Source of the DNA: Candidatus Wolfebacteria bacterium GW2011_GWA1_44_24
GTDB taxonomy: Bacteria > Patescibacteriota > Minisyncoccia > UBA6257 > UBA9933
Direction: 5' to 3'
NCBI GenBank assembly: GCA_001001115.1
Contig: LCIO01000002.1
Span: forward strand, 2,848-66,847
DNA: 64,000 nucleotides
Position numbers and translations under genes: made by a program. The notes below the pieces were generated by a model. That model had not been told where the DNA came from. It did no database searches and saw only the letters and a program-made list of their open reading frames with translations. This document shows positions 1,685 through 55,066 of this stretch, one piece after another. Positions within the stretch are counted from its first letter, which is position 1, and each line of letters begins with the position of its first letter.

Positions 1685-2296
1685 ATGTTATTTTCCGAAT
1701 TTTATCACAAAATTCCGCGGCGGGTCAAAATTTTCTGTGTTTTTATTTTGATTGTTCTGGCGGTTTATCTGTTGGTTTATTTTTTGACTCCCGTAGCGCA
1801 AAATGTGCCGGAAGAATTTTTAAGGGCGCGCCAGGAAGCGTCGCTGATTGCCAAAGACATTATTTTTATTTCGTCTCAAACAGCCGACAATATAAACAAA
1901 ATATCCGATTTGGACCGCGACAAAAATTACACCGAAGCGCTGAATTTGATTTCCGCCGAGCTGAACAATAATCGCGAGGCGCGGAACAAGGCCGTAAACC
2001 TTTCGGCTCAGCTGGAAATCATGACGAAAAACATTTCACAGATTTCTCCGCCCGTTGTTTCGCAGATTGCCCTGGAAGCGGTTGGTTCGGAAACCACCCT
2101 GATCAGCCGGCTGATCACTTACAACGATTATTTGGTCCAGCTTCTCGGAATTTTGCAGAAAAAATTTTTGGGGCAGGAAAAAAATAGCAATGAAAAAATA
2201 ACGGAATTGATAAGCAAAATAAACGAAGAGGCCAAAGCCATCAATAATTTAGACAAAAATTTCAACGATTTAATGAAGCAATTTGACGGTCAATGA
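1685..2296 (+). CDS. Hypothetical N-terminally membrane-anchored helical (coiled-coil-like) protein; first gene of the surface-protein island
   Basis: 203-aa ORF with one N-terminal TM (IFCVFILIVLAVYLLVYFLT) and a helical remainder rich in N/K/E/L. Its stop overlaps the next start (ATGA at 2293), suggesting co-translation with the 702-aa gene. Confidence 0.65.
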   Translation: MLFSEFYHKIPRRVKIFCVFILIVLAVYLLVYFLTPVAQNVPEEFLRARQEASLIAKDIIFISSQTADNINKISDLDRDKNYTEALNLISAELNNNREARNKAVNLSAQLEIMTKNISQISPPVVSQIALEAVGSETTLISRLITYNDYLVQLLGILQKKFLGQEKNSNEKITELISKINEEAKAINNLDKNFNDLMKQFDGQ

Positions 2297-4401
2297 AGAT
2301 AAAAAGGAAATTTATTTTTTCAGTAATTGTGTTTTTAGCGATGGTTGGCTGGATTTTTTCCGGCTGGCCGCAGATTTGGCAGAATCCTCCAGTGCCACCA
2401 GAAATTCAAAAAACCAAAGCTTCGCCCGCATTTACTGCCAGAACCGAGACCTATGCTAGGGGCTCTTCACTAAGTTCGCCCTATGATTTTACAATAAATA
2501 AGGCAGGTGGAACGGTAGATGGGGACATAATGTTTATGTTTCTGGCTATCTATGTTTCGTCTCCACCGACTGTTGACAGCGTGCCTTCTGGTTGGACGCT
2601 GGTAGCCACCAACACCACAACCAATAGTAGGTGGTATCTCTACTACAAGATAGCTTCGGGTGAAGGAACGAGTTACACTTGGAGTCTTACTGCCAGCGCT
2701 AGGTATTATGCTCTCAATATCGCTTATTCGTCAGGTGACTTTGATGTCCAAAGTATCAGCGACATAACAGCTATTTCCAACACTCTTTATGGCACGGGTA
2801 ATGCGAATGTCAGGGCAGCTTCAATGAATGTTCCCGCTGTAAATTCCCCACTGGTATATTTTGGAGCTATCTACAATACGACAGTCAGGACTTTCACCAA
2901 ACCTATTTTGCCTACTACAGATTGGGTTGAAGATGCTGACCAAGGACATACCATTCCAGACTTGTCCTTAACTATTGGCTCCATGATTTGGACTGGTTCG
3001 GGCGCTACTGGCGATATGGACATCACTTGTTCAGCCAGTATTACAACCTATAAGCATGCCTTTGCCGTAGCTCTTAAACCAGTTGTTGCTCCCACCGTCA
3101 GCACTCAAGCGGCGACACTTAAGGAGGCGACTACAGCGACTTGCAATGGAACTATTACGGTAACGGGCGGAGTAAATTCCACCAACGCCGGCTGTGAATG
3201 GGATATAGATACCGGCGCTCCTTACGCCAACACCGCGTCAACTGCCGGCGATTATGGCGCGGCGCCCTTTACCCAATCCCTTACCAGTTTGCCTTCAGGA
3301 ACAACTATTTACGCCAGGGCTTTTGCTACTAATTCTGCTGGAACGGGATATGGCGGCGAGGTCAGTTTTTTGACCAAACCGGCCGCTCCGACTAGCGTAG
3401 CGGCTACTGATGGTTCGGCCACCGATAAAGTAACTATAACATGGACAAAATCTACCGGTGCGACTGACTATCATGTCTGGCGCGATTCAACCGATTTGGG
3501 CGCGGCTGGGGATGTGGCAACATTTGACGATACGGGAGCGGATGCGCCGATTATCACTCCAGGAACTGCGGCTGCCAGCGACGGAACTTCTGCCGATTAT
3601 GTAGCGTTGAGCGTGTCCGGTCAGTCGGCCAATAATGGCACCACGCATACTTATAAAGTAGTTGCCTCCAATGCCACAGGCAACAGTGCTGACAGCGCCA
3701 CTGATACTGGTTACCGGGGCGTCGGCTCTCTTACTTACCAATGGCAAAGATCGGCCGCGGATAGCGACGCAAGCTATTCAAATATAGATGGCGCAACCAC
3801 TGCGAGCTACAACGATACCGGCGCCCCATCTGATGGAAGCGGGAGGTACTACAAAGTTGTTGAGAATGCCACCGGTGCAACCCAGCAAATTTCTGCTTCT
3901 GATAGAGGATATAGATTAACTACCACTATTTCCTGCTCCACAGATAATTCTTCAACTTCTTTTAGCGCCTGGACTGACACCTCCATAAAAACATCTTCGC
4001 CCAACGCTTCAACCACAATGTCCTGCTCCGGCACTTCTTCGGGCTGCGCTCTTTATGTCAAAAATGCGGGCGGCGGTGGGAATCCCGGTTTATGGAAAAG
4101 CGCCGCGCCGACGTATCTTATTGCTTCCGTTGACGCGGTTCTTTCCGCTGGCGTTGACGGTTACGGCATTCAAGCCACTTCGACAGCCAGTGGCTCAGGC
4201 GGCACATTAAGTTTTAATTCCAAATACAATCAAACCGGCAACAATGTCGGCGGCTTGACGCTCACCAATACCGTTCTGGCTTCGTCCACGGTTGATGTTT
4301 CCGGGCGCGAAGCGGTGGTAATCCATAAAGCGGCGGTCAGCGGCGTTGCGATTTCGGGAAGTTACTCGGATACGATTACTTACGAATGTACGGCAAATTA
4401 A
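2293..4401 (+). CDS. Large secreted surface protein: N-terminal anchor/signal, unknown ~250-aa domain, FN3/Ig-like repeats, C-terminal ~157-aa WxL-like module
   Basis: 702-aa ORF. N-terminal hydrophobic segment FIFSVIVFLAMVGWIFSGW. Repeats of the type VTITWTKSTGATDYHVWRD and LTYQWQRSA...YYKVV (FN3-like) and GCEWD...GTTIYARAFATNSAGTGYGGEVSF. The C-terminal module (3928-4398) is paralogous to the next gene and ends GSYSDTITYECTAN. Confidence 0.8.
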   Translation: MKIKRKFIFSVIVFLAMVGWIFSGWPQIWQNPPVPPEIQKTKASPAFTARTETYARGSSLSSPYDFTINKAGGTVDGDIMFMFLAIYVSSPPTVDSVPSGWTLVATNTTTNSRWYLYYKIASGEGTSYTWSLTASARYYALNIAYSSGDFDVQSISDITAISNTLYGTGNANVRAASMNVPAVNSPLVYFGAIYNTTVRTFTKPILPTTDWVEDADQGHTIPDLSLTIGSMIWTGSGATGDMDITCSASITTYKHAFAVALKPVVAPTVSTQAATLKEATTATCNGTITVTGGVNSTNAGCEWDIDTGAPYANTASTAGDYGAAPFTQSLTSLPSGTTIYARAFATNSAGTGYGGEVSFLTKPAAPTSVAATDGSATDKVTITWTKSTGATDYHVWRDSTDLGAAGDVATFDDTGADAPIITPGTAAASDGTSADYVALSVSGQSANNGTTHTYKVVASNATGNSADSATDTGYRGVGSLTYQWQRSAADSDASYSNIDGATTASYNDTGAPSDGSGRYYKVVENATGATQQISASDRGYRLTTTISCSTDNSSTSFSAWTDTSIKTSSPNASTTMSCSGTSSGCALYVKNAGGGGNPGLWKSAAPTYLIASVDAVLSAGVDGYGIQATSTASGSGGTLSFNSKYNQTGNNVGGLTLTNTVLASSTVDVSGREAVVIHKAAVSGVAISGSYSDTITYECTAN

Positions 4402-15819: not shown

Positions 15820-16956
15820 ATGTATATTGAAATTGAACCCCGAGAAGAAGAGGAGTTAAAAAACGGATTAAAAAAAAGAAACGATTTTGAAGCCAAAAGA
15901 TTAAGCCGTTTTCTTGATTATCCGGATTTGACGCGCGATAAAAACAGCCCTTTATTTGAACTTGTCAGGCGCATTAAAAATATCGAACGTTTTTCCGATT
16001 TCGACGAAATCAAAATTCCGGAAATCGTTCGAGCCGATATTAGTTTTGATTTGTTTAATTTCCCCGCCGACCATCCCAGCCGGAGCCGTTCCGACACTTA
16101 TTACATTGACAACAACCACATTTTGCGAACCCACACCACGGTAATGTGGTATTACTATTTGAATCAGGAAATTATTAAAGAAAAAATTAAAAACAAGATG
16201 TCCATAGGAGCTCTTTCTTGCGGCAAAGTTTACCGCAAGGATGAAATAGACCGGAACCATATGAATGTTTTTCATCAGATTGACGGCTGGTATCTTTCTC
16301 CAAAATCAGAAAAAGTCGTCACCATCGACGATTTAAAAATAATTCTAACCGAAATCGCTCAAGCTATTTTCGGCAAAGACATAAAATTCAGGTTCAGCAT
16401 CGATAAGTTCCCTTACACCGACCCGAGCTGTGAGATGGAAATAGAAGTGGAAGGAAGGTGGGTGGAAGTTTTGGGTTCCGGCATTGTTCATCCGGTTGTT
16501 CTTAAAAATTTGGGAATTAATCCCGATGAATACAACGGTTGGGCGTTTGGTTTTGGATTGGAAAGATTGGCGATAATAAGCATGAGTCTTCCGGATATTC
16601 GTTTGCTTTGGTCCGATGATCCGAGGATTAAAAAACAGCTTATTTTAGGCAATAAATATGTCGCGGTCAGCAAATATCCGCCCATCACCAGAGATATATC
16701 GTTTGTGGTCGGCAAAGATTTCGTTCCCAATAATTATTTTGATTTAATAAGGGATATCGGCGGGAATTTGGCTGAAGAAGTGAAGCTGATTGATAAATAT
16801 GAAGATTTTGAAAAATTTGGAAAGAATAAAATCAGTTATACTTATCGTATAATTTATAGAAGCAATGACCGAACTTTGCTTTCAAGCGAAGTTGATAAAA
16901 TCCAAGAAGAAATATACACTGAAACAGCAAAACAATTTAACGCTGAATTGAGATAG
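15820..16956 (+). CDS. pheS: Phenylalanine--tRNA ligase, single-chain mitochondrial-type architecture (class IIc catalytic core + C-terminal FDX-ACB anticodon-binding domain)
   Basis: 378 aa. FPADHPSRSRSDTYYI..ILRTHTT, GKVYRKDEIDRNHMNVFHQIDG (motif 2), FPYTDPSCEMEIEVEGRWVEVLGSGI, GWAFGFGLERLAII (motif 3). Then SKYPPITRDISFVV...YFDLIRDIGGNLAEEVKLIDKYE...YRIIYRSNDRTLLSSEVDKIQEEI...AELR, the FDX-ACB pattern normally found at the PheT C-terminus or in mitochondrial FARS2. Confidence 0.85.
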   Translation: MYIEIEPREEEELKNGLKKRNDFEAKRLSRFLDYPDLTRDKNSPLFELVRRIKNIERFSDFDEIKIPEIVRADISFDLFNFPADHPSRSRSDTYYIDNNHILRTHTTVMWYYYLNQEIIKEKIKNKMSIGALSCGKVYRKDEIDRNHMNVFHQIDGWYLSPKSEKVVTIDDLKIILTEIAQAIFGKDIKFRFSIDKFPYTDPSCEMEIEVEGRWVEVLGSGIVHPVVLKNLGINPDEYNGWAFGFGLERLAIISMSLPDIRLLWSDDPRIKKQLILGNKYVAVSKYPPITRDISFVVGKDFVPNNYFDLIRDIGGNLAEEVKLIDKYEDFEKFGKNKISYTYRIIYRSNDRTLLSSEVDKIQEEIYTETAKQFNAELR

Positions 16957-17033
16957 CTCCTATCGTCTAGTCTGGTCCAGGACACATCCTTTTCAAGGAT
17001 AAAACTCGGGTTCAAATCCCGATGGGAGCACCA
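16956..17033 (+). tRNA. tRNA-Glu (anticodon UUC), CCA encoded
   Basis: GCTCCTATCGTCTAGTCTGGTCCAGGACACATCCTTTTCAAGGATAAAACTCGGGTTCAAATCCCGATGGGAGCACCA. Acceptor GCTCCTA/TGGGAGC, anticodon loop TTTTCAA, T-arm TCGGG-TTCAAAT-CCCGA. The first base is the last base of the pheS stop codon. Confidence 0.92.
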
Positions 17034-17046
17034 TTTTAATTTTTCA

Positions 17047-18090
17047 ATGAAAATTCTTGCTGTTGAAACAAGTTGCGATGAGACGGCAATTGCGCTTGTT
17101 GAGGCAAAAGGCAATTTGATAAAAAACCGCTCCGCCGGCTGGCGGATTAAAATTTTAAAAAATTTAGTGGCGTCTCAAATAAAAATTCACCGGCCTTACG
17201 GCGGCGTGGTGCCGAATTTGGCAAAAAGAGAACATCTCAAAAATTTACCGATTCTTTTTAAAAAGATTCAGGATTCAGGAGTTAAGATTCAAGACTTTGA
17301 TTTAATTGCCGTTACGGTTGGTCCAGGGCTTGAGCCGGCCTTATGGACCGGCATAAACTTTGCTAAAGAATTGGCAAAAAAATGGAAAAAACCGATAATC
17401 GGGGCGAGTCATTTGGACGGACACCTATACTCTTTTTTACTTCAGCGAAAAAGAGTAAATTTGCAAAAGATTTTTCCCGCAATTGCTTTGATTGTCAGCG
17501 GTGGGCATACGACTCTGCTTTTATTGAAAGATTTAACACATTTTAAAAAAATAGGGGAAACAAGAGATGACGCCGCTGGCGAAGCGTTTGATAAAGCGGC
17601 GAGATTGCTGGATTTGCCTTATCCGGGCGGTCCGGAAATTGAAAAATCGGCAAAATTCGGCAATCCGCAAGCGATTGATTTCCCCCGGCCCATGCTTAAC
17701 CAAAAAAATTACGATTTTAGTTTTTCCGGGCTTAAGACGGCGGTATTATATTATTTAAGAGACAATAAAAACGCAAAAAAAGAAGATATTGCCGCTTCTT
17801 TTCAGCAAGCCGCTTTTGACGTTCTGGTTTTGAAAACTTTGAGAGCCGCCAAAGAATTTAAAGCCAAATCAATTTTTGTTTCCGGCGGCGTGGCGGCGAA
17901 CAAAACTTTAATGAAGGAATTCAAAAAAGCCATTAAAAAATCACCCAATTATCCGGTTGCCCAATCGCCAAATTTATTTATCACGGAATTTCCGACCGAT
18001 AATGCCGCAATGATTGCGGCCGCAGCTTACATAAATTTTTTACGGGGAAAAAAAAGACGGTTGACAGCCCAAGGAAATCTTTCAATATGA
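17047..18090 (+). CDS. tsaD: tRNA N6-adenosine threonylcarbamoyltransferase TsaD (Kae1/Gcp family)
   Basis: 347 aa. MKILAVETSCDETAIALV N-terminus, ...GPGLEPALWTGINFAKELA..., HLDGH, ASKHA-fold pattern, ...SGGVAAN... Confidence 0.88.
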   Translation: MKILAVETSCDETAIALVEAKGNLIKNRSAGWRIKILKNLVASQIKIHRPYGGVVPNLAKREHLKNLPILFKKIQDSGVKIQDFDLIAVTVGPGLEPALWTGINFAKELAKKWKKPIIGASHLDGHLYSFLLQRKRVNLQKIFPAIALIVSGGHTTLLLLKDLTHFKKIGETRDDAAGEAFDKAARLLDLPYPGGPEIEKSAKFGNPQAIDFPRPMLNQKNYDFSFSGLKTAVLYYLRDNKNAKKEDIAASFQQAAFDVLVLKTLRAAKEFKAKSIFVSGGVAANKTLMKEFKKAIKKSPNYPVAQSPNLFITEFPTDNAAMIAAAAYINFLRGKKRRLTAQGNLSI

Positions 18091-52706: not shown

Positions 52707-52756
52707 TTTATGTTTATCCACAGTTGTTATATAATTTATATGATATAATAAAAACA

Positions 52757-55066
52757 ATGAATAATTTTTTCCAAAATAAATTTTTTATAACTTTTTTAAT
52801 TTTGGCGATAGCGATTTACGGTTTTTCGACGAAAATGGCGCAAGCCAGCGGAGTTTTTAATTTTCTAACCTTTGTTTTTAGTATTGTTATTACGACGGTT
52901 CTTTGGAGTGTGGGCGTTCCAATACCGCCATTATGGTCTTTGGTTGGTATGAGTTCTCTTGGCGCGAGTATCGGCATTGGTCAAGCTATTTGTCTTCTCG
53001 GCGCTGATAACTCTTATTGGTCCGGTTGTAGCGGCGGCAACATCGGCGGCGTGGCAATTATCGCTCCCACTTTGATTCCTTCCATAGCCGGAGAATGCCG
53101 AGTGGGTTTGGTTCTACCTTCTTTTTATGAACCCTGGTCTGGGCAAAGCATTGGAACAGCAAGCGCGATAACATTGGGTTCTAAATTATTCGAACCCATC
53201 ACATACACCAACTATTTATCCAACGAAGTCAATAAACTCGGAGGAGAATATAAGGATTTGCCTTTGTCGGACGTTTCTCTCAGCGGTAATGTTTTTGCCG
53301 GTAGTTTCACTATAGAATACAATGTTTCAACTTCGACTAAAACCATTGTTCCCAAAACAATCGCGACCAATTCTTTAAAAACAATGAGCCAGTTCCGCCA
53401 GAGTTACGGCGATATTATATTAAAAGGAACATTTTCCGCGTTACAACAATCTCCAGGTCCTGGCGGCCCTCCCGGTTCTGAACAAACCTATTCTTCCACT
53501 TCCACTCCTGAGCAATTCATCAAAGACGGCAAATTCTTTTCCGCTTTTGCTTCCACAAACAGCGGTTATAAAGCAACTATTATTTCCGACATTGAAAATT
53601 GTTCAGCCGCCGGAGAATTCGATTCCAACTGCCAGCTTCTTTTCCAGCCCAAAGGCAAAACAATCCAATATCCGATAATCAACTTCGGTTCTTTTTTGGG
53701 GGACAGTCAGAGGGCCTCATATTCAAAACGGCCGACTTTCTCGGCTTTTCGGATAATTCCACCGCCGTTGGACGAATCGGAGTTTGACGCGGAATTGTAC
53801 CGGTTCGCTTTGCCCGACCCCAAAATCGCCAATCCCAATTTGACGGATAAACAGCTCAAAGATATCCTCACCGCCTGGTACTATAACGTTCCTTATCTCG
53901 GCGGCGATAAAGTTTTCAGCATAACCGCCGGCCCGGGAATTTATAATTTCAGTTTGGGTAGCCAAAATATTTTGATGAAAATCGCCACCACCACTTATCC
54001 CAATATGTCCCGTTATTGGACGCCACCCAATGACGGTCATTTCTATCGCTTTAAACAAGTAGGCGTCCCCGGCTATACCGAACCAACGGCAACTCCGGAA
54101 ATCCTTGACCGCGGCAACAACGTTGTTTATGAAAGAGTTAAAATTTCTTCCTATAAATACAAAAATGTTTGCGCTGTGGGCATTTGCAATCTGATAGACC
54201 ATGCTCCGCCGGAAGGCAAATATTTGATTTATATCGCCAAAATCAAAGGCAATTTTGGCCAAATTTATGAATATGTTTCTTTACCTTCTACGCTTATTCC
54301 AGTCGCTTCAAAATATCTCAATGTTAACAAACTCCAAAGCTCCTGGTTCTCCTGGTATTGGAATAACTGTGATGACGACGGCTGCGATTTATACAAAGGC
54401 GACAGCAACATCGCTTACGGCCCCTTGGCGCCCATTGTTTTGCCTTCCCAAGATTCCTGCGAAGTCGCGGCTGATGTCAGAATTACGGCTGTCAGTTGCG
54501 ATGCCGTTACTCTTTTGACAACGGTTCCTTTTGTGGACCAGGCCAAATTCGCCGGTTATGACGTCTACCGGGACAACAATCTCATTGCTTCCAATATCCC
54601 CATCAACCAGCCGGTTTTTGAAGACAAAGGGCTTTCCAAGAGAATGGAATATACCTACAAAGTCGTTGTCAAAACAACGGACGGCATGGCCCAAGATTTC
54701 AATCTGCCGGCTGTCAAAACAGTTTGCATTCCCGAGTGTTCCTTGTCGGCCAGTCCTAATTCTCTAGTTTATCCTTCAAGTCAAACCAAGGTTTCCTGGC
54801 AATGTCAGGAAGCGGATTCCTGCATTTTAACAAGCTCCAATTTGCCCGAGAATTATCCCACCGCTGATCAATTTTGTTCCAGTATCAACGGTTCAATCAA
54901 GGAAACTGGCTGCCAAGTCAACAATACCAGCTACGCTTCTCCTTCTTTGACTTTGGACCAAACCACCACTTTTATTCTGGCCTGTCAAAACATTGATGGC
55001 GCTTCTACCAACGCCGCCACCGTGGATTTTTTAAGGCCGAAGAGAATGGAAATAATACCGCGGTAG
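52757..55066 (+). CDS. Large membrane-associated/extracellular hypothetical protein (N-terminal TM cluster, C-terminal FN3/Ig-like modules)
   Basis: The ATG at 52757 (MNNFFQNKFFITFLILAIAIYGF...) is preceded by TGaTATAAT at 7 nt; the track start TTG 52724 is less likely. Several N-terminal hydrophobic segments. C-terminal ...AGYDVYRDNNLIASNIPINQPVFEDKGLSKRMEYTYKVVV... (FN3-like) and Cys-rich Ig-like ends. Confidence 0.75.
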   Translation: MNNFFQNKFFITFLILAIAIYGFSTKMAQASGVFNFLTFVFSIVITTVLWSVGVPIPPLWSLVGMSSLGASIGIGQAICLLGADNSYWSGCSGGNIGGVAIIAPTLIPSIAGECRVGLVLPSFYEPWSGQSIGTASAITLGSKLFEPITYTNYLSNEVNKLGGEYKDLPLSDVSLSGNVFAGSFTIEYNVSTSTKTIVPKTIATNSLKTMSQFRQSYGDIILKGTFSALQQSPGPGGPPGSEQTYSSTSTPEQFIKDGKFFSAFASTNSGYKATIISDIENCSAAGEFDSNCQLLFQPKGKTIQYPIINFGSFLGDSQRASYSKRPTFSAFRIIPPPLDESEFDAELYRFALPDPKIANPNLTDKQLKDILTAWYYNVPYLGGDKVFSITAGPGIYNFSLGSQNILMKIATTTYPNMSRYWTPPNDGHFYRFKQVGVPGYTEPTATPEILDRGNNVVYERVKISSYKYKNVCAVGICNLIDHAPPEGKYLIYIAKIKGNFGQIYEYVSLPSTLIPVASKYLNVNKLQSSWFSWYWNNCDDDGCDLYKGDSNIAYGPLAPIVLPSQDSCEVAADVRITAVSCDAVTLLTTVPFVDQAKFAGYDVYRDNNLIASNIPINQPVFEDKGLSKRMEYTYKVVVKTTDGMAQDFNLPAVKTVCIPECSLSASPNSLVYPSSQTKVSWQCQEADSCILTSSNLPENYPTADQFCSSINGSIKETGCQVNNTSYASPSLTLDQTTTFILACQNIDGASTNAATVDFLRPKRMEIIPR

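What the first reader, a model, noticed from the sequence alone, without database searches (positions are those of the whole stretch)
15820..16956. Single-chain, mitochondrial-type (FARS2-like) phenylalanyl-tRNA synthetase in a bacterium
Bacterial PheRS is normally an (alpha-beta)2 enzyme. The FDX-ACB anticodon-binding domain and the editing site both sit on the beta subunit PheT.

Here one 378-aa ORF carries the class IIc catalytic core: FPADHPSR, YRKDEIDRNHMNVFHQIDG, GWAFGFGLERLAII. It continues directly into an FDX-ACB domain: SKYPPITRDISFVV...NNYFDLIRDIGGNLAEEVKLIDKYE...YRIIYRSNDRTLLSSEVDKIQEEI...AELR. That is the architecture of monomeric mitochondrial PheRS.

Several stretches also resemble my recollection of human FARS2 (PADHPSR, YR.D.ID..H...FHQ.., DISF, FYDL.R.IGG.L.E.V.LIDK). 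No pheT follows; the next genes are tRNA-Glu and tsaD.

If this is the only PheRS in the genome, the organism would lack PheRS editing. That would also bear on the origin of the organellar enzyme.
Basis: partly seen in the sequence, partly recalled or inferred. Interest (0 to 1): 0.62.

Follow-up and report, generated by a model that had tools for sequence, protein, structure and literature searches.

The report
Single-chain PheRS replacing pheS–pheT in Parcubacteria
This Candidatus Wolfebacteria gene encodes a one-piece phenylalanyl-tRNA synthetase of the kind textbooks assign only to mitochondria, and indirect evidence suggests it has replaced the usual two-subunit, proofreading bacterial enzyme in a large group of ultra-small bacteria.

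Summary
ORF 15820-16956 (+) encodes 378 aa with a class IIc PheRS core (Pfam 2e-60) fused to an FDX-ACB anticodon-binding domain (2e-22). The AF2 model (pLDDT 92) superposes full-length on human mitochondrial PheRS (TM 0.78-0.80). tRNA-Glu and tsaD follow, and the 64-kb window holds no pheT or second pheS.

The window comes from Candidatus Wolfebacteria (GCA_000996445.1). The gene belongs to a large, well-conserved Parcubacteria family (Wolfe-, Niyogi-, Ryan-, Wildermuth-, Staskawicz-, Nealson-, Portnoybacteria), mostly labelled "hypothetical protein" by NCBI.

In a rough rooted tree, the bacterial clade (with SrmL) is sister to the eukaryote plus giant-virus clade, not nested in it.

Whether it is the sole PheRS could not be tested on the whole genome. 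Three indirect lines support replacement:
- In four lineages the gene sits directly upstream of gyrB, where related Paceibacteria carry pheS-pheT.
- Published family counts show about 20% of CPR genomes lack both canonical subunits.
- Published single-copy tables count one PheS-like gene.

No literature description was found. I rate it a new bacterial member of a known enzyme kind, of moderate to high interest.

The parts
15820..16956 (+). Whole gene: single-chain PheRS, 378 aa plus the TAG stop codon
   Evidence: ORF call; Pfam PF01409 + PF03147; 100% identical to KKR88969.1/KKT56337.1, deposited as 'Phenylalanyl-tRNA synthetase' from Candidatus Wolfebacteria
15820..15930 (+). N-terminal extension, residues 1-37: two helices, no PheS-type coiled coil
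   Evidence: AF2 secondary structure shows helices at 8-19 and 23-33. There is no PF02912 hit. Alignment to E. coli PheS starts at its residue 100, and alignment to compact Paceibacteria PheS starts at residue 7
15931..16638 (+). Class IIc catalytic core, residues 38-273
   Evidence: PF01409 E 2.1e-60; aligns end-to-end with canonical PheS at 32-38% identity
16231..16287 (+). Motif 2, YRKDEIDRNHMNVFHQIDG (residues 138-156). R139, D141, D144, H147, F151, H152 and D155 are invariant in the family
   Evidence: Alignment and column counts. D155 stands where E. coli has E210, and this E-to-D change is common among fused PheRS
16408..16428 (+). Phe-pocket wall, FPYTDPS (residues 197-203). T200 corresponds to E. 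coli T251 and human T235. Y199 stands where canonical and mitochondrial enzymes have Phe
   Evidence: residue roles from PMC3275996
16537..16572 (+). Motif 3, GWAFGFGLERLA (residues 240-251). A242 corresponds to E. coli A294, the specificity alanine
   Evidence: role of A294 from PMC3275996
16591..16611 (+). PDIRLLW (residues 258-264), a signature shared by fused PheRS (human PDIRLFW; canonical E. coli TDLRSFF)
   Evidence: Alignment; invariant P258, D259, I260, R261 and W264
16669..16953 (+). FDX-ACB (B8-type) anticodon-binding domain, residues 284-378, with conserved RDISF and YRIxYRSxxRTL
   Evidence: PF03147 E 2.2e-22; matches the last ~95 residues of PheT only; 39-43% identical to mitochondrial-type FDX-ACB, against 30-34% for Paceibacteria PheT and 24% for E. 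coli PheT
16956..17033 (+). tRNA-Glu(UUC). Its first base is the last base of the PheRS stop codon TAG
   Evidence: ARAGORN; sequence read
17047..18090 (+). tsaD, the downstream neighbour (not pheT)
   Evidence: Pfam PF00814 on the identical gene in L001
14322..15797 (+). Upstream neighbour: VirD4/TraG-like coupling ATPase (context only)
   Evidence: PF02534, PF01935 and PF10412 on the identical gene in L001

Best explanation
The gene encodes a functional single-chain phenylalanyl-tRNA synthetase. One polypeptide carries the class IIc catalytic module, which activates Phe with ATP and transfers it to A76 of tRNA-Phe. The same chain carries a C-terminal FDX-ACB (B8) domain that reads the GAA anticodon. 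By analogy with human mitochondrial PheRS, the anticodon-binding domain is packed against the core in a resting 'closed' state and must swing open to bind tRNA. The protein has no B3/B4 editing domain, so accuracy would rest on the synthetic-site pocket alone. In this Wolfebacterium and a large clade of Parcubacteria it is most likely the only PheRS, having displaced the ancestral pheS-pheT operon. Shown here: domain composition, conservation of catalytic and pocket residues, fold, family distribution, the shared position upstream of gyrB, and the deficit of canonical PheS/PheT in CPR genomes. Inferred: enzymatic activity, monomeric state, the open/closed motion, absence of editing in vivo, and absence of pheS/pheT from the rest of this particular genome.
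For: Domains: PF01409 plus PF03147 on one chain, with no B3_4 or B5 sequence in the gene or in 204 kb of monomer-bearing contexts.

Fold: AF2 pLDDT 92 and pTM 0.88. Foldseek TM is 0.78-0.80 over the full length to closed human mtPheRS (3cmq, 5mgh), but 0.59 to the open tRNA complex 3tup.

Residues: DHPxR, DTYY, motif 2, FPxTxPS, T200 (= E. coli T251), A242 (= E. coli A294), motif 3 and the FDX-ACB RDISF/YRIxYRS..RTL motifs are invariant or nearly so in 32 family members. Their roles are taken from PMC3275996.

Conservation: more than 100 relatives at 68-84% identity across several candidate phyla, and further members at about 50% identity in Staskawicz-, Nealson- and Portnoybacteria.

Replacement, by position: the monomer lies directly upstream of gyrB on the same strand in L140 (4-bp gap), L138 (10 bp), L141 (127 bp) and L007 (1.4 kb). 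Canonical pheS-pheT lies directly upstream of gyrB in L142, L078, L087 and L088. The GyrB of L141 is 72% identical to a GyrB linked to canonical pheST.

Replacement, by published counts: canonical PheS is in 1645 and PheT in 1642 of 2321 CPR genomes, against AlaRS 2118, HisRS 2053 and SerRS 2017. Non-CPR bacteria show no deficit (1011/1046 against 1039/1023/946).

Single-copy tables: 'PheRS alpha' is counted once in a 97.7%-complete Wolfebacteria genome and once in a Niyogibacteria genome.
Against: The rest of this genome (GCA_000996445.1) could not be scanned, so a pheS-pheT pair elsewhere is not excluded.

Other Parcubacteria do carry compact canonical pheS-pheT, so both systems exist within the class.

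The family-count deficit is not broken down by lineage, and it could partly reflect divergent PheS/PheT being placed in other families.

In the window itself, and in 3 other monomer contexts, the gene is not linked to gyrB.

Two pocket positions differ from canonical and human enzymes: Y199 for Phe and D155 for Glu. Y199 is shared with SrmL, a family of unknown function.

The protein scores below the curated cutoffs of all three NCBIfam models: pheS_mito, SrmL and pheS.

No biochemistry exists for this family.
Confidence: 0.75

Rival explanations
1. The gene is an extra paralogue. The genome keeps a canonical pheS-pheT pair elsewhere, and this gene is an accessory PheRS-like ligase, for example an inhibitor-resistant spare PheRS or a 'mystery ligase' like SrmL with another substrate.
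For: SrmL (NF051887) has the same two-domain layout, and a true member sits on a Glutamicibacter plasmid next to a chloramphenicol-efflux gene, in an organism that must have canonical PheRS. The query scores 236 bits on the SrmL model, shares Y199 with SrmL, and groups with SrmL in the tree with 67% support. A relative in an Oligoflexia MAG (P0133) sits beside a beta-lactamase in an ordinary large-genome context. Canonical pheS-pheT exists in other Parcubacteria.
Against: The query is below the SrmL cutoff (236 against 300), while a true SrmL scores 524. SrmL has lost DHP, the D of DTYY, the first Phe of FPFT and GWAFG, and the query keeps all of these. The gene occupies the pheS-pheT slot upstream of gyrB in four lineages, with no pheT nearby. 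About 400 CPR genomes lack both canonical subunits. Single-copy tables count one PheS-like gene, not two. Redundant synthetases are unlikely in genomes this small, which is an inference.
Confidence: 0.15
2. The gene was recently transferred horizontally from a eukaryote or giant virus. On this view it is a captured FARS2-type gene nested within eukaryotic diversity, with no bearing on the origin of the organellar enzyme.
For: Human mtPheRS is the best PDB match. Giant viruses carry many compact (~350 aa) single-chain PheRS genes that could act as vectors.
Against: In the rooted NJ tree the eukaryote plus giant-virus sequences form one clade (97.5%), and the CPR, 'near' and SrmL sequences fall outside it as a sister clade. 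The bacterial family is deep (down to 50% identity) and spread over many candidate phyla. It lacks the insertion that splits the core in eukaryotic sequences.
Confidence: 0.05
3. The gene arose by a recent in-situ fusion in Parcubacteria. An internal deletion in the local pheS-pheT operon joined pheS to the last ~95 codons of pheT, independently of the mitochondrial fusion (convergence).
For: The protein equals a full compact PheS plus the PheT FDX-ACB domain, and in four lineages it lies exactly where pheS-pheT lies, upstream of gyrB.
Against: Neither domain is closest to Paceibacteria PheS or PheT, which rank 32nd-82nd of 82 for the core and mostly 35th-46th (best 11th) of 50-62 for the FDX-ACB domain. 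The best matches are Bacillota. Both domains are closer to mitochondrial and giant-virus fused enzymes. All fused enzymes form one clade against the canonical outgroup with 100% support and share the PDIR(L/Y)xW junction signature.
Confidence: 0.05

Closest known systems
Mitochondrial phenylalanyl-tRNA synthetase (human FARS2, PDB 3CMQ/3TUP; yeast MSF1; NCBIfam TIGR00469)
   Same: It is a single chain made of a class IIc catalytic module plus a B8/FDX-ACB anticodon-binding domain, with no editing domain. The full-length structural match has TM 0.78-0.80 and 32% identity. The two share DHPSR, YRxDxID..H...FHQ, FPxT.PS.E, GWAFG.GLERLA, PDIRLxW, DISF and YRIxYR..RTL. The model is predicted in the closed conformation seen in apo human mtPheRS (PMC3275996).
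   Different: The organism is a bacterium, and the protein has no targeting peptide. It is shorter (378 aa) and lacks the ~25-30 aa insertion that splits the core alignment in eukaryotic sequences. It has Y199 for Phe and D155 for Glu. It is below the TIGR00469 cutoff (243.3 against 258.35) and falls in a sister clade, not inside the eukaryotic clade.
SrmL, 'PheS-related mystery ligase' (NCBIfam NF051887), e.g. WP_005882727.1 on Glutamicibacter plasmid pGnB68
   Same: It has the same core plus FDX-ACB-like layout and a similar length. It shares Tyr at the FPYT position and Asp in HQxD. It is the nearest bacterial sister group in the tree.
   Different: Identity is only 27%, and the query is below the family cutoff (236 against 300). 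SrmL has lost several PheRS signatures (DHP, DTYY, the first Phe of FPFT, GWAFG) that the query keeps. SrmL occurs on a plasmid next to a resistance gene, in bacteria with normal PheRS.
Canonical bacterial (alpha-beta)2 PheRS, including the compact pheS (242-246 aa) and pheT (596-612 aa) of other Paceibacteria
   Same: The catalytic core is homologous over its whole length (32-38% identity), and the FDX-ACB is homologous to the PheT C-terminus. The chromosomal position upstream of gyrB is the same in several lineages.
   Different: It is one gene instead of two. It has no B1, B3/B4 (editing), B5 or B6/B7 domains and no N-terminal coiled coil. It is below the TIGR00468 cutoff (180 against 237).
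Giant-virus single-chain PheRS (about 340-370 aa; IMG/VR GVMAG contigs)
   Same: It is compact, single-chain and lacks a presequence, with the same two domains.
   Different: The viral genes group with eukaryotic mitochondrial sequences (97.5% clade), not with the CPR family. Identity to the query is about 35-39%.

Membership tests
Single-chain (mitochondrial-type) PheRS | Class IIc PheRS catalytic core and FDX-ACB/B8 anticodon-binding domain on one polypeptide | tested here: met
   PF01409 over residues 38-273 (2.1e-60) and PF03147 over residues 284-378 (2.2e-22)
Single-chain (mitochondrial-type) PheRS | No editing (B3/B4) or other beta-subunit domains | tested here: met
   No other Pfam hit; PheT matches only through its last ~95 residues
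Single-chain (mitochondrial-type) PheRS | Full-length fold like human mtPheRS | tested here: met
   AF2 pLDDT 92; Foldseek TM 0.78-0.80 and E 3e-34 to 3cmq/5mgh
Single-chain (mitochondrial-type) PheRS | Phe-pocket and catalytic residues conserved (E. coli T251 and A294 equivalents, motifs 1-3) | tested here: met
   T200 and A242 are invariant and motifs 2 and 3 are kept. There are two conservative differences, Y199 for Phe and D155 for Glu
Single-chain (mitochondrial-type) PheRS | Scores above the curated cutoff of the equivalog model TIGR00469 (pheS_mito) | tested here: not met
   243.3 bits against a cutoff of 258.35. The protein is not an orthologue-level member of the eukaryotic family
Single-chain (mitochondrial-type) PheRS | Phylogenetic placement inside the eukaryotic mitochondrial clade | tested here: not met
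   The bacterial clade is sister to the eukaryote plus giant-virus clade (97.5% support for the latter) in a rooted NJ tree, which is rough
Single-chain (mitochondrial-type) PheRS | Active as a monomer; charges tRNA-Phe with Phe | not testable with these tools
   Needs biochemistry (aminoacylation assay, SEC-MALS)
SrmL (NF051887) | Score above the curated cutoff of 300 bits | tested here: not met
   236.1 bits, whereas a true member scores 524
SrmL (NF051887) | SrmL-type sequence signatures (HPYT, GLALG, loss of DHP and DTYY) | tested here: not met
   The query keeps ADHPSR, DTYY, FPYT and GWAFG
Canonical bacterial PheS (TIGR00468) | Score above the cutoff of 237.45; alpha-subunit architecture ending after motif 3; partner pheT adjacent | tested here: not met
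   180.3 bits. The chain continues into FDX-ACB. The downstream genes are tRNA-Glu and tsaD
Sole housekeeping PheRS of the organism | No pheS or pheT elsewhere in the same genome | tested here: inconclusive
Indirect support comes from the shared gyrB position, the CPR deficit of canonical PheS/PheT and the single-copy count of 1

The most novel reading that the evidence does not exclude
The single-chain PheRS was invented in bacteria, and the mitochondrial enzyme (FARS2/MSF1) descends from such a bacterial fused gene rather than from a eukaryote-specific fusion. The Parcubacteria clade, with its offshoot SrmL, is the surviving bacterial sister lineage. It includes free-living or episymbiotic bacteria that translate with an editing-free, one-polypeptide PheRS after displacing pheS-pheT at the same locus.
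Probability: 0.35. Interest if true: 0.75.

Novelty: new member of a known kind. Interest (0 to 1): 0.58.

Why it matters
Reviews state that prokaryotic PheRS is heterotetrameric "in all known species" and that mitochondrial PheRS is the only monomeric class II catalytic module (PMC3275996). A whole clade of bacteria that uses a single-chain PheRS as its housekeeping enzyme would have four consequences.

1. It would overturn that generalisation.
2. It would provide a bacterial sister group for rooting the origin of the mitochondrial enzyme.
3. It would mean these organisms lack PheRS proofreading of Tyr-tRNA-Phe and m-Tyr-tRNA-Phe. That is relevant to translational fidelity in minimal genomes.
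4. It would expose an annotation gap. NCBI labels most family members "hypothetical protein", and all three NCBIfam models miss them. Marker sets that use pheS/pheT models (from my memory, TIGR00468 and TIGR00472 are in GTDB bac120) would then systematically score these genomes as lacking two universal genes.

The enzyme is also a compact (378 aa) candidate for an orthogonal PheRS in synthetic biology.

Tried and rejected
**Literature.** Nine searches found no paper describing a bacterial single-chain PheRS. Terms included SrmL, 'mystery ligase', monomeric/mitochondrial-type PheRS, FARS2 with CPR terms, and FDX-ACB. Mukai 2017 only notes that CPR PheRS-beta lacks the B2 domain. Brown 2015 is not held. 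Tian 2020 and the Minisyncoccus paper do not mention PheRS.

**Structure libraries.** afdb50 was unavailable. BFVD gave only generic class II hits.

**Genome collection scan.** The first alignment was too diverse. The second was swamped by canonical PheS, though it yielded L007 and the L078 pheS-pheT seed.

**Cross-matching genomes by source names or locus tags.** Names of PheT hits were too generic to compare with monomer-bearing MAGs.

**Seeking CPR PheS among the representatives without a detected FDX-ACB domain.** Most proved to be truncated or atypical fused forms.

**First NJ tree.** An ill-defined 'canonical' set left it unresolved, and a Biopython bootstrap timed out.

**In-situ fusion.** This was rejected because the monomer domains are not closest to Paceibacteria PheS or PheT.

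**Wider shared synteny between L007 and canonical loci.** Only gyrB is shared.

**The unnamed ~350-aa monomers.** I first suspected other prokaryotes, but they turned out to be giant-virus genes.

**Long N-terminal fusions.** I checked them for an editing domain and found none.
Full report
**1. Observation**

The ORF at 15820..16956 (+) starts with ATG and encodes 378 aa.

- Pfam finds tRNA-synt_2d over residues 38-273 (E 2.1e-60) and FDX-ACB over residues 284-378 (E 2.2e-22, 79.7 bits against a gathering score of 31.1).
- The best PDB sequence matches are the human mitochondrial PheRS entries (E about 5e-58). Bacterial PheS chains follow at 1e-43 or weaker, and PheT chains match only through their C-terminal ~95 residues.
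- ARAGORN places tRNA-Glu(UUC) at 16956-17033. The next gene, 17047-18090, carries the TsaD domain.
- No other part of the 64-kb window matches the ORF's core, its FDX-ACB domain, or Paceibacteria PheS or PheT. The large ORFs of the window are LigA, RecG, TopA, RelA/SpoT, a T2SS/T4P ATPase, GatA, RpoB and RpoC.
- The identical protein is found on 14 contigs from NCBI, ENA and Logan assemblies.

**2. Source and family**

The window is part of LCAK01000003.1 (231 kb) in GCA_000996445.1. The protein is KKR88969.1/KKT56337.1 from Candidatus Wolfebacteria GW2011_GWA1_44_24 / GWB1_41_12. It was deposited as "Phenylalanyl-tRNA synthetase", and UniRef calls it "phenylalanine--tRNA ligase".

The 120 best relatives in the 5.8-billion-protein collection are 68-84% identical, 362-402 aa long, and all carry PF01409+PF03147. 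Named ones come from Niyogi-, Ryan- and Wildermuthbacteria and from "Patescibacteria/Parcubacteria group" MAGs. NCBI mostly names them "hypothetical protein", while JGI names them "phenylalanyl-tRNA synthetase alpha chain".

A second search, seeded with the more distant relative P0133, adds members at about 50% identity from Staskawicz-, Nealson-, Portnoy- and other Wolfebacteria. Some of these are on contigs up to 785 kb.

NCBIfam explains the "hypothetical" labels, because the protein falls below all three relevant curated cutoffs:

| Model | Score (bits) | Cutoff (bits) |
|---|---|---|
| pheS_mito TIGR00469 | 243.3 | 258.35 |
| SrmL NF051887 | 236.1 | 300 |
| pheS TIGR00468 | 180.3 | 237.45 |

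**3. Structure and residues**

An AlphaFold2 model built on 32 family members has mean pLDDT 92.1 and pTM 0.88. Foldseek against the PDB ranks human mtPheRS first, with E 3e-34, TM 0.78-0.80 over about 390 columns and 32% identity. The open, tRNA-bound form 3tup matches at TM 0.59 only. Bacterial PheS chains match the core only. The model therefore sits in the closed state described for apo human mtPheRS, whose anticodon-binding domain must move to accept tRNA (PMC3275996).

In alignments with E. coli PheS, human FARS2 fragments, SrmL and other groups, the family keeps these features:
- ADHPSR and DTYY;
- motif 2, YRKDEIDRNH..FHQ;
- FPYTDPS, with T200 = E. coli T251 = human T235;
- motif 3, GWAFGFGLERLA, with A242 = E. 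coli A294, the specificity alanine;
- the FDX-ACB motifs RDISF and YRIxYRS..RTL.

All of these positions are invariant or nearly so in 32 sequences.

There are two differences from canonical and human enzymes. D155 replaces Glu, which is common among fused PheRS of all groups. Y199 replaces the second Phe of FPFT, a change shared only with SrmL and two "near" sequences.

**4. The superfamily**

An exhaustive HMMER search of 1.84 billion cluster representatives finds 304 clusters at E<=1e-30. Local domain mapping and marker sequences resolve five groups:
- (a) This Parcubacteria family, essentially a handful of 50%-identity clusters.
- (b) A few "near" sequences. These are P0133 from an Oligoflexia MAG, whose neighbours look like an ordinary large-genome bacterium with a beta-lactamase directly upstream, plus P0135 and P0138, which are unnamed.
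- (c) SrmL. A true member (524 bits) is WP_005882727.1 on Glutamicibacter plasmid pGnB68, next to a Cmx/CmrA chloramphenicol exporter.
- (d) Eukaryote-like sequences of 420-530 aa with a split core.
- (e) Many proteins of ~340-370 aa that proved to be giant-virus genes, with 44 full-length hits on IMG/VR contigs, several named GVMAG and up to 1.47 Mb long. These were absent from GTDB prokaryote genomes in the capped scan.

I built a rooted NJ tree with 306 columns, Kimura distances and 200 bootstraps. The outgroup was canonical PheS core concatenated with PheT FDX-ACB from 15 loci. Support values were:

| Grouping | Bootstrap support |
|---|---|
| All fused enzymes against the outgroup | 100% |
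| Eukaryote + giant virus | 97.5% |
| CPR + near + SrmL | 67% |
| CPR + near | 77.5% |
| SrmL | 100% |

The method is rough, but the CPR family is clearly not nested among eukaryotic or viral sequences.

**5. Is it the only PheRS?**

A direct test, scanning the whole assembly, was not possible with these tools. Indirect evidence is as follows.

(i) Other Paceibacteria carry a compact canonical operon, with pheS of 242-246 aa immediately followed by pheT of 596-612 aa (B3_4, B5, FDX-ACB). This PheT family is large.

(ii) Position. In four canonical loci, pheS-pheT lies directly upstream of gyrB on the same strand. In L142 the gap is 95 bp, and in L078, L087 and L088 one or two small ORFs intervene. 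In four monomer-bearing Parcubacteria loci the single-chain gene lies directly upstream of gyrB on the same strand:
- L140, Nealsonbacteria: 4-bp gap;
- L138, Staskawiczbacteria: 10 bp;
- L141: 127 bp;
- L007: 1.4 kb.

The L141 GyrB is 72% identical to a GyrB linked to canonical pheST, against 78-80% among the canonical loci themselves. In the window and in L089, L139 and L143 the gene has other neighbours.

(iii) In 204 kb of monomer contexts, PheT matches only through the FDX-ACB domain inside the monomer gene.

(iv) Published family counts (Meheust et al. 2019, Supplementary Data 1; 2321 CPR and 1198 non-CPR bacterial genomes):

| Family | CPR genomes | Non-CPR bacterial genomes |
|---|---|---|
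| Canonical PheS | 1645 | 1011 |
| Canonical PheT | 1642 | 1046 |
| AlaRS | 2118 | 1039 |
| HisRS | 2053 | 1023 |
| SerRS | 2017 | 946 |
| GyrB | 1985 | 1057 |
| EF-Ts | 1983 | 1046 |
| S13 | 2167 | 1117 |

Roughly 400 CPR genomes therefore lack both canonical subunits in parallel. No such gap exists outside CPR.

(v) Anantharaman et al. 2016 count "Phenylalanyl tRNA synthetase alpha" once in a 97.7%-complete Wolfebacteria genome and once in a Niyogibacteria genome. [quoted passage not shown]

Together these favour displacement of pheS-pheT by the single-chain gene. I put this at about 0.8 for the clade. For this particular genome it remains an inference.

**6. Origin of the fused gene**

The protein equals a complete compact PheS plus the last ~95 residues of PheT. 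Even so, neither domain is closest to Paceibacteria PheS or PheT, even for the gyrB-linked members. The Paceibacteria sequences rank 32nd-82nd of 82 for the core and mostly 35th-46th (best 11th) of 50-62 for the FDX-ACB domain, and the best matches are Bacillota loci. Both domains are closer to other fused enzymes: the FDX-ACB domain is 39-43% identical to mitochondrial-type domains, against 30-34% to Paceibacteria PheT and 24% to E. coli PheT.

A recent in-situ fusion is therefore unlikely. The data fit a single old fusion, followed by displacement of pheS-pheT in a Parcubacteria clade.

**7. Mechanism**

Partly shown and partly inferred, the mechanism is as follows. The catalytic module activates Phe and transfers it to tRNA-Phe. 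The FDX-ACB domain reads the anticodon after an open/closed domain movement. There is no B3/B4 site, so Tyr-tRNA-Phe would not be hydrolysed, as reported for human mtPheRS, which "can stably attach Tyr to tRNAPhe" (PMC3275996).

**8. Comparison with what is known, and novelty**

The enzyme kind is well known: mitochondrial PheRS is a fusion of an alpha-subunit part with the beta-subunit C-terminal part and has lost editing (PMC6723311 citing Roy et al. 2005; PMC3275996). The same review states that heterotetrameric organisation is conserved in all known prokaryotes, and that mtPheRS is the only monomeric class II catalytic module.

Databases already call this protein a PheRS. I found no paper describing a bacterial single-chain PheRS, its distribution in Parcubacteria, or its position in the pheS-pheT slot. 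The search covered open-access literature only, so prior description elsewhere is possible.

I classify it as a new bacterial, sister-clade member of a known kind. Interest is 0.58.

Noticed in passing
window 16954-16956 / 16956-17033: The last base of the PheRS stop codon TAG is the first base of tRNA-Glu (acceptor stem GCTCCTA/TGGGAGC, with an encoded CCA). If the two are co-transcribed, RNase P cleavage would leave the mRNA ending in 'UA', which recalls mitochondrial tRNA punctuation. This may be coincidence.
   Followed up: partly
L090-L133 (IMG/VR contigs, e.g. IMGVR_UViG_2974536336_000001, 1.47 Mb): Giant viruses carry a widespread, compact (~340-370 aa) single-chain PheRS without a presequence. 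There are 44 full-length loci, and they group with eukaryotic mitochondrial PheRS in the tree.
   Followed up: partly
L005:7974-9092 (Glutamicibacter nicotianae plasmid pGnB68, NZ_CP142605.1): A genuine SrmL 'PheS-related mystery ligase' (524 bits) sits directly downstream of a Cmx/CmrA chloramphenicol-efflux gene on a plasmid. It keeps the core plus FDX-ACB layout but has lost several PheRS pocket signatures.
   Followed up: partly
L137:10001-11245 (GCA_019694465.1, Oligoflexia MAG): A 414-aa single-chain PheRS-like gene (41% identical to the query) lies in a non-CPR genomic context, directly downstream of a class A beta-lactamase-type gene. It may be an accessory paralogue, as SrmL appears to be.
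   Followed up: no
L078:9986-12555; L087, L088, L142: Canonical Paceibacteria PheRS is itself minimal. PheS is only 242-246 aa with no N-terminal coiled coil, and PheT is about 600 aa with no B2/tRNA_bind domain. In L088 a 99-aa PQ-loop/MtN3 ORF is called between pheS and pheT.
   Followed up: no
L089:13582-16972 and 2531-2863 (GCA_005239895.1): A row of seven small T4SS_pilin genes lies next to ThrRS and the monomeric PheRS. The same locus also has a free-standing 110-aa tRNA_bind (PF01588) protein, the domain that these lineages' PheRS lacks.
   Followed up: no
window 13022-15797: A DUF8128 protein (432 aa) and a VirD4/TraG-like coupling ATPase (491 aa) lie immediately upstream of the PheRS gene. 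The pair is conserved in all four contigs carrying the identical PheRS.
   Followed up: no
window 52724-55066 (+) and 2293-4401 (+): Two large ORFs (780 aa and 702 aa) have no Pfam hit at E<=1e-5.
   Followed up: no
P0264 (669 aa), P0158 (704 aa), P0259 (690 aa), P0175, P0177: Some single-chain PheRS relatives carry 170-380 aa N-terminal extensions. P0264 is a TACO1/YebC-PheRS fusion, and the others have no recognised domain. None has an editing domain.
   Followed up: partly
PMC5079060 Supplementary Data 4: A 95%-complete Nealsonbacteria genome (RIFCSPLOWO2_12_FULL_39_31) scores 0 for 'PheRS alpha', although Nealsonbacteria carry the single-chain gene. Annotation-based marker counting therefore seems to miss the fused enzyme in some cases.
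   Followed up: no
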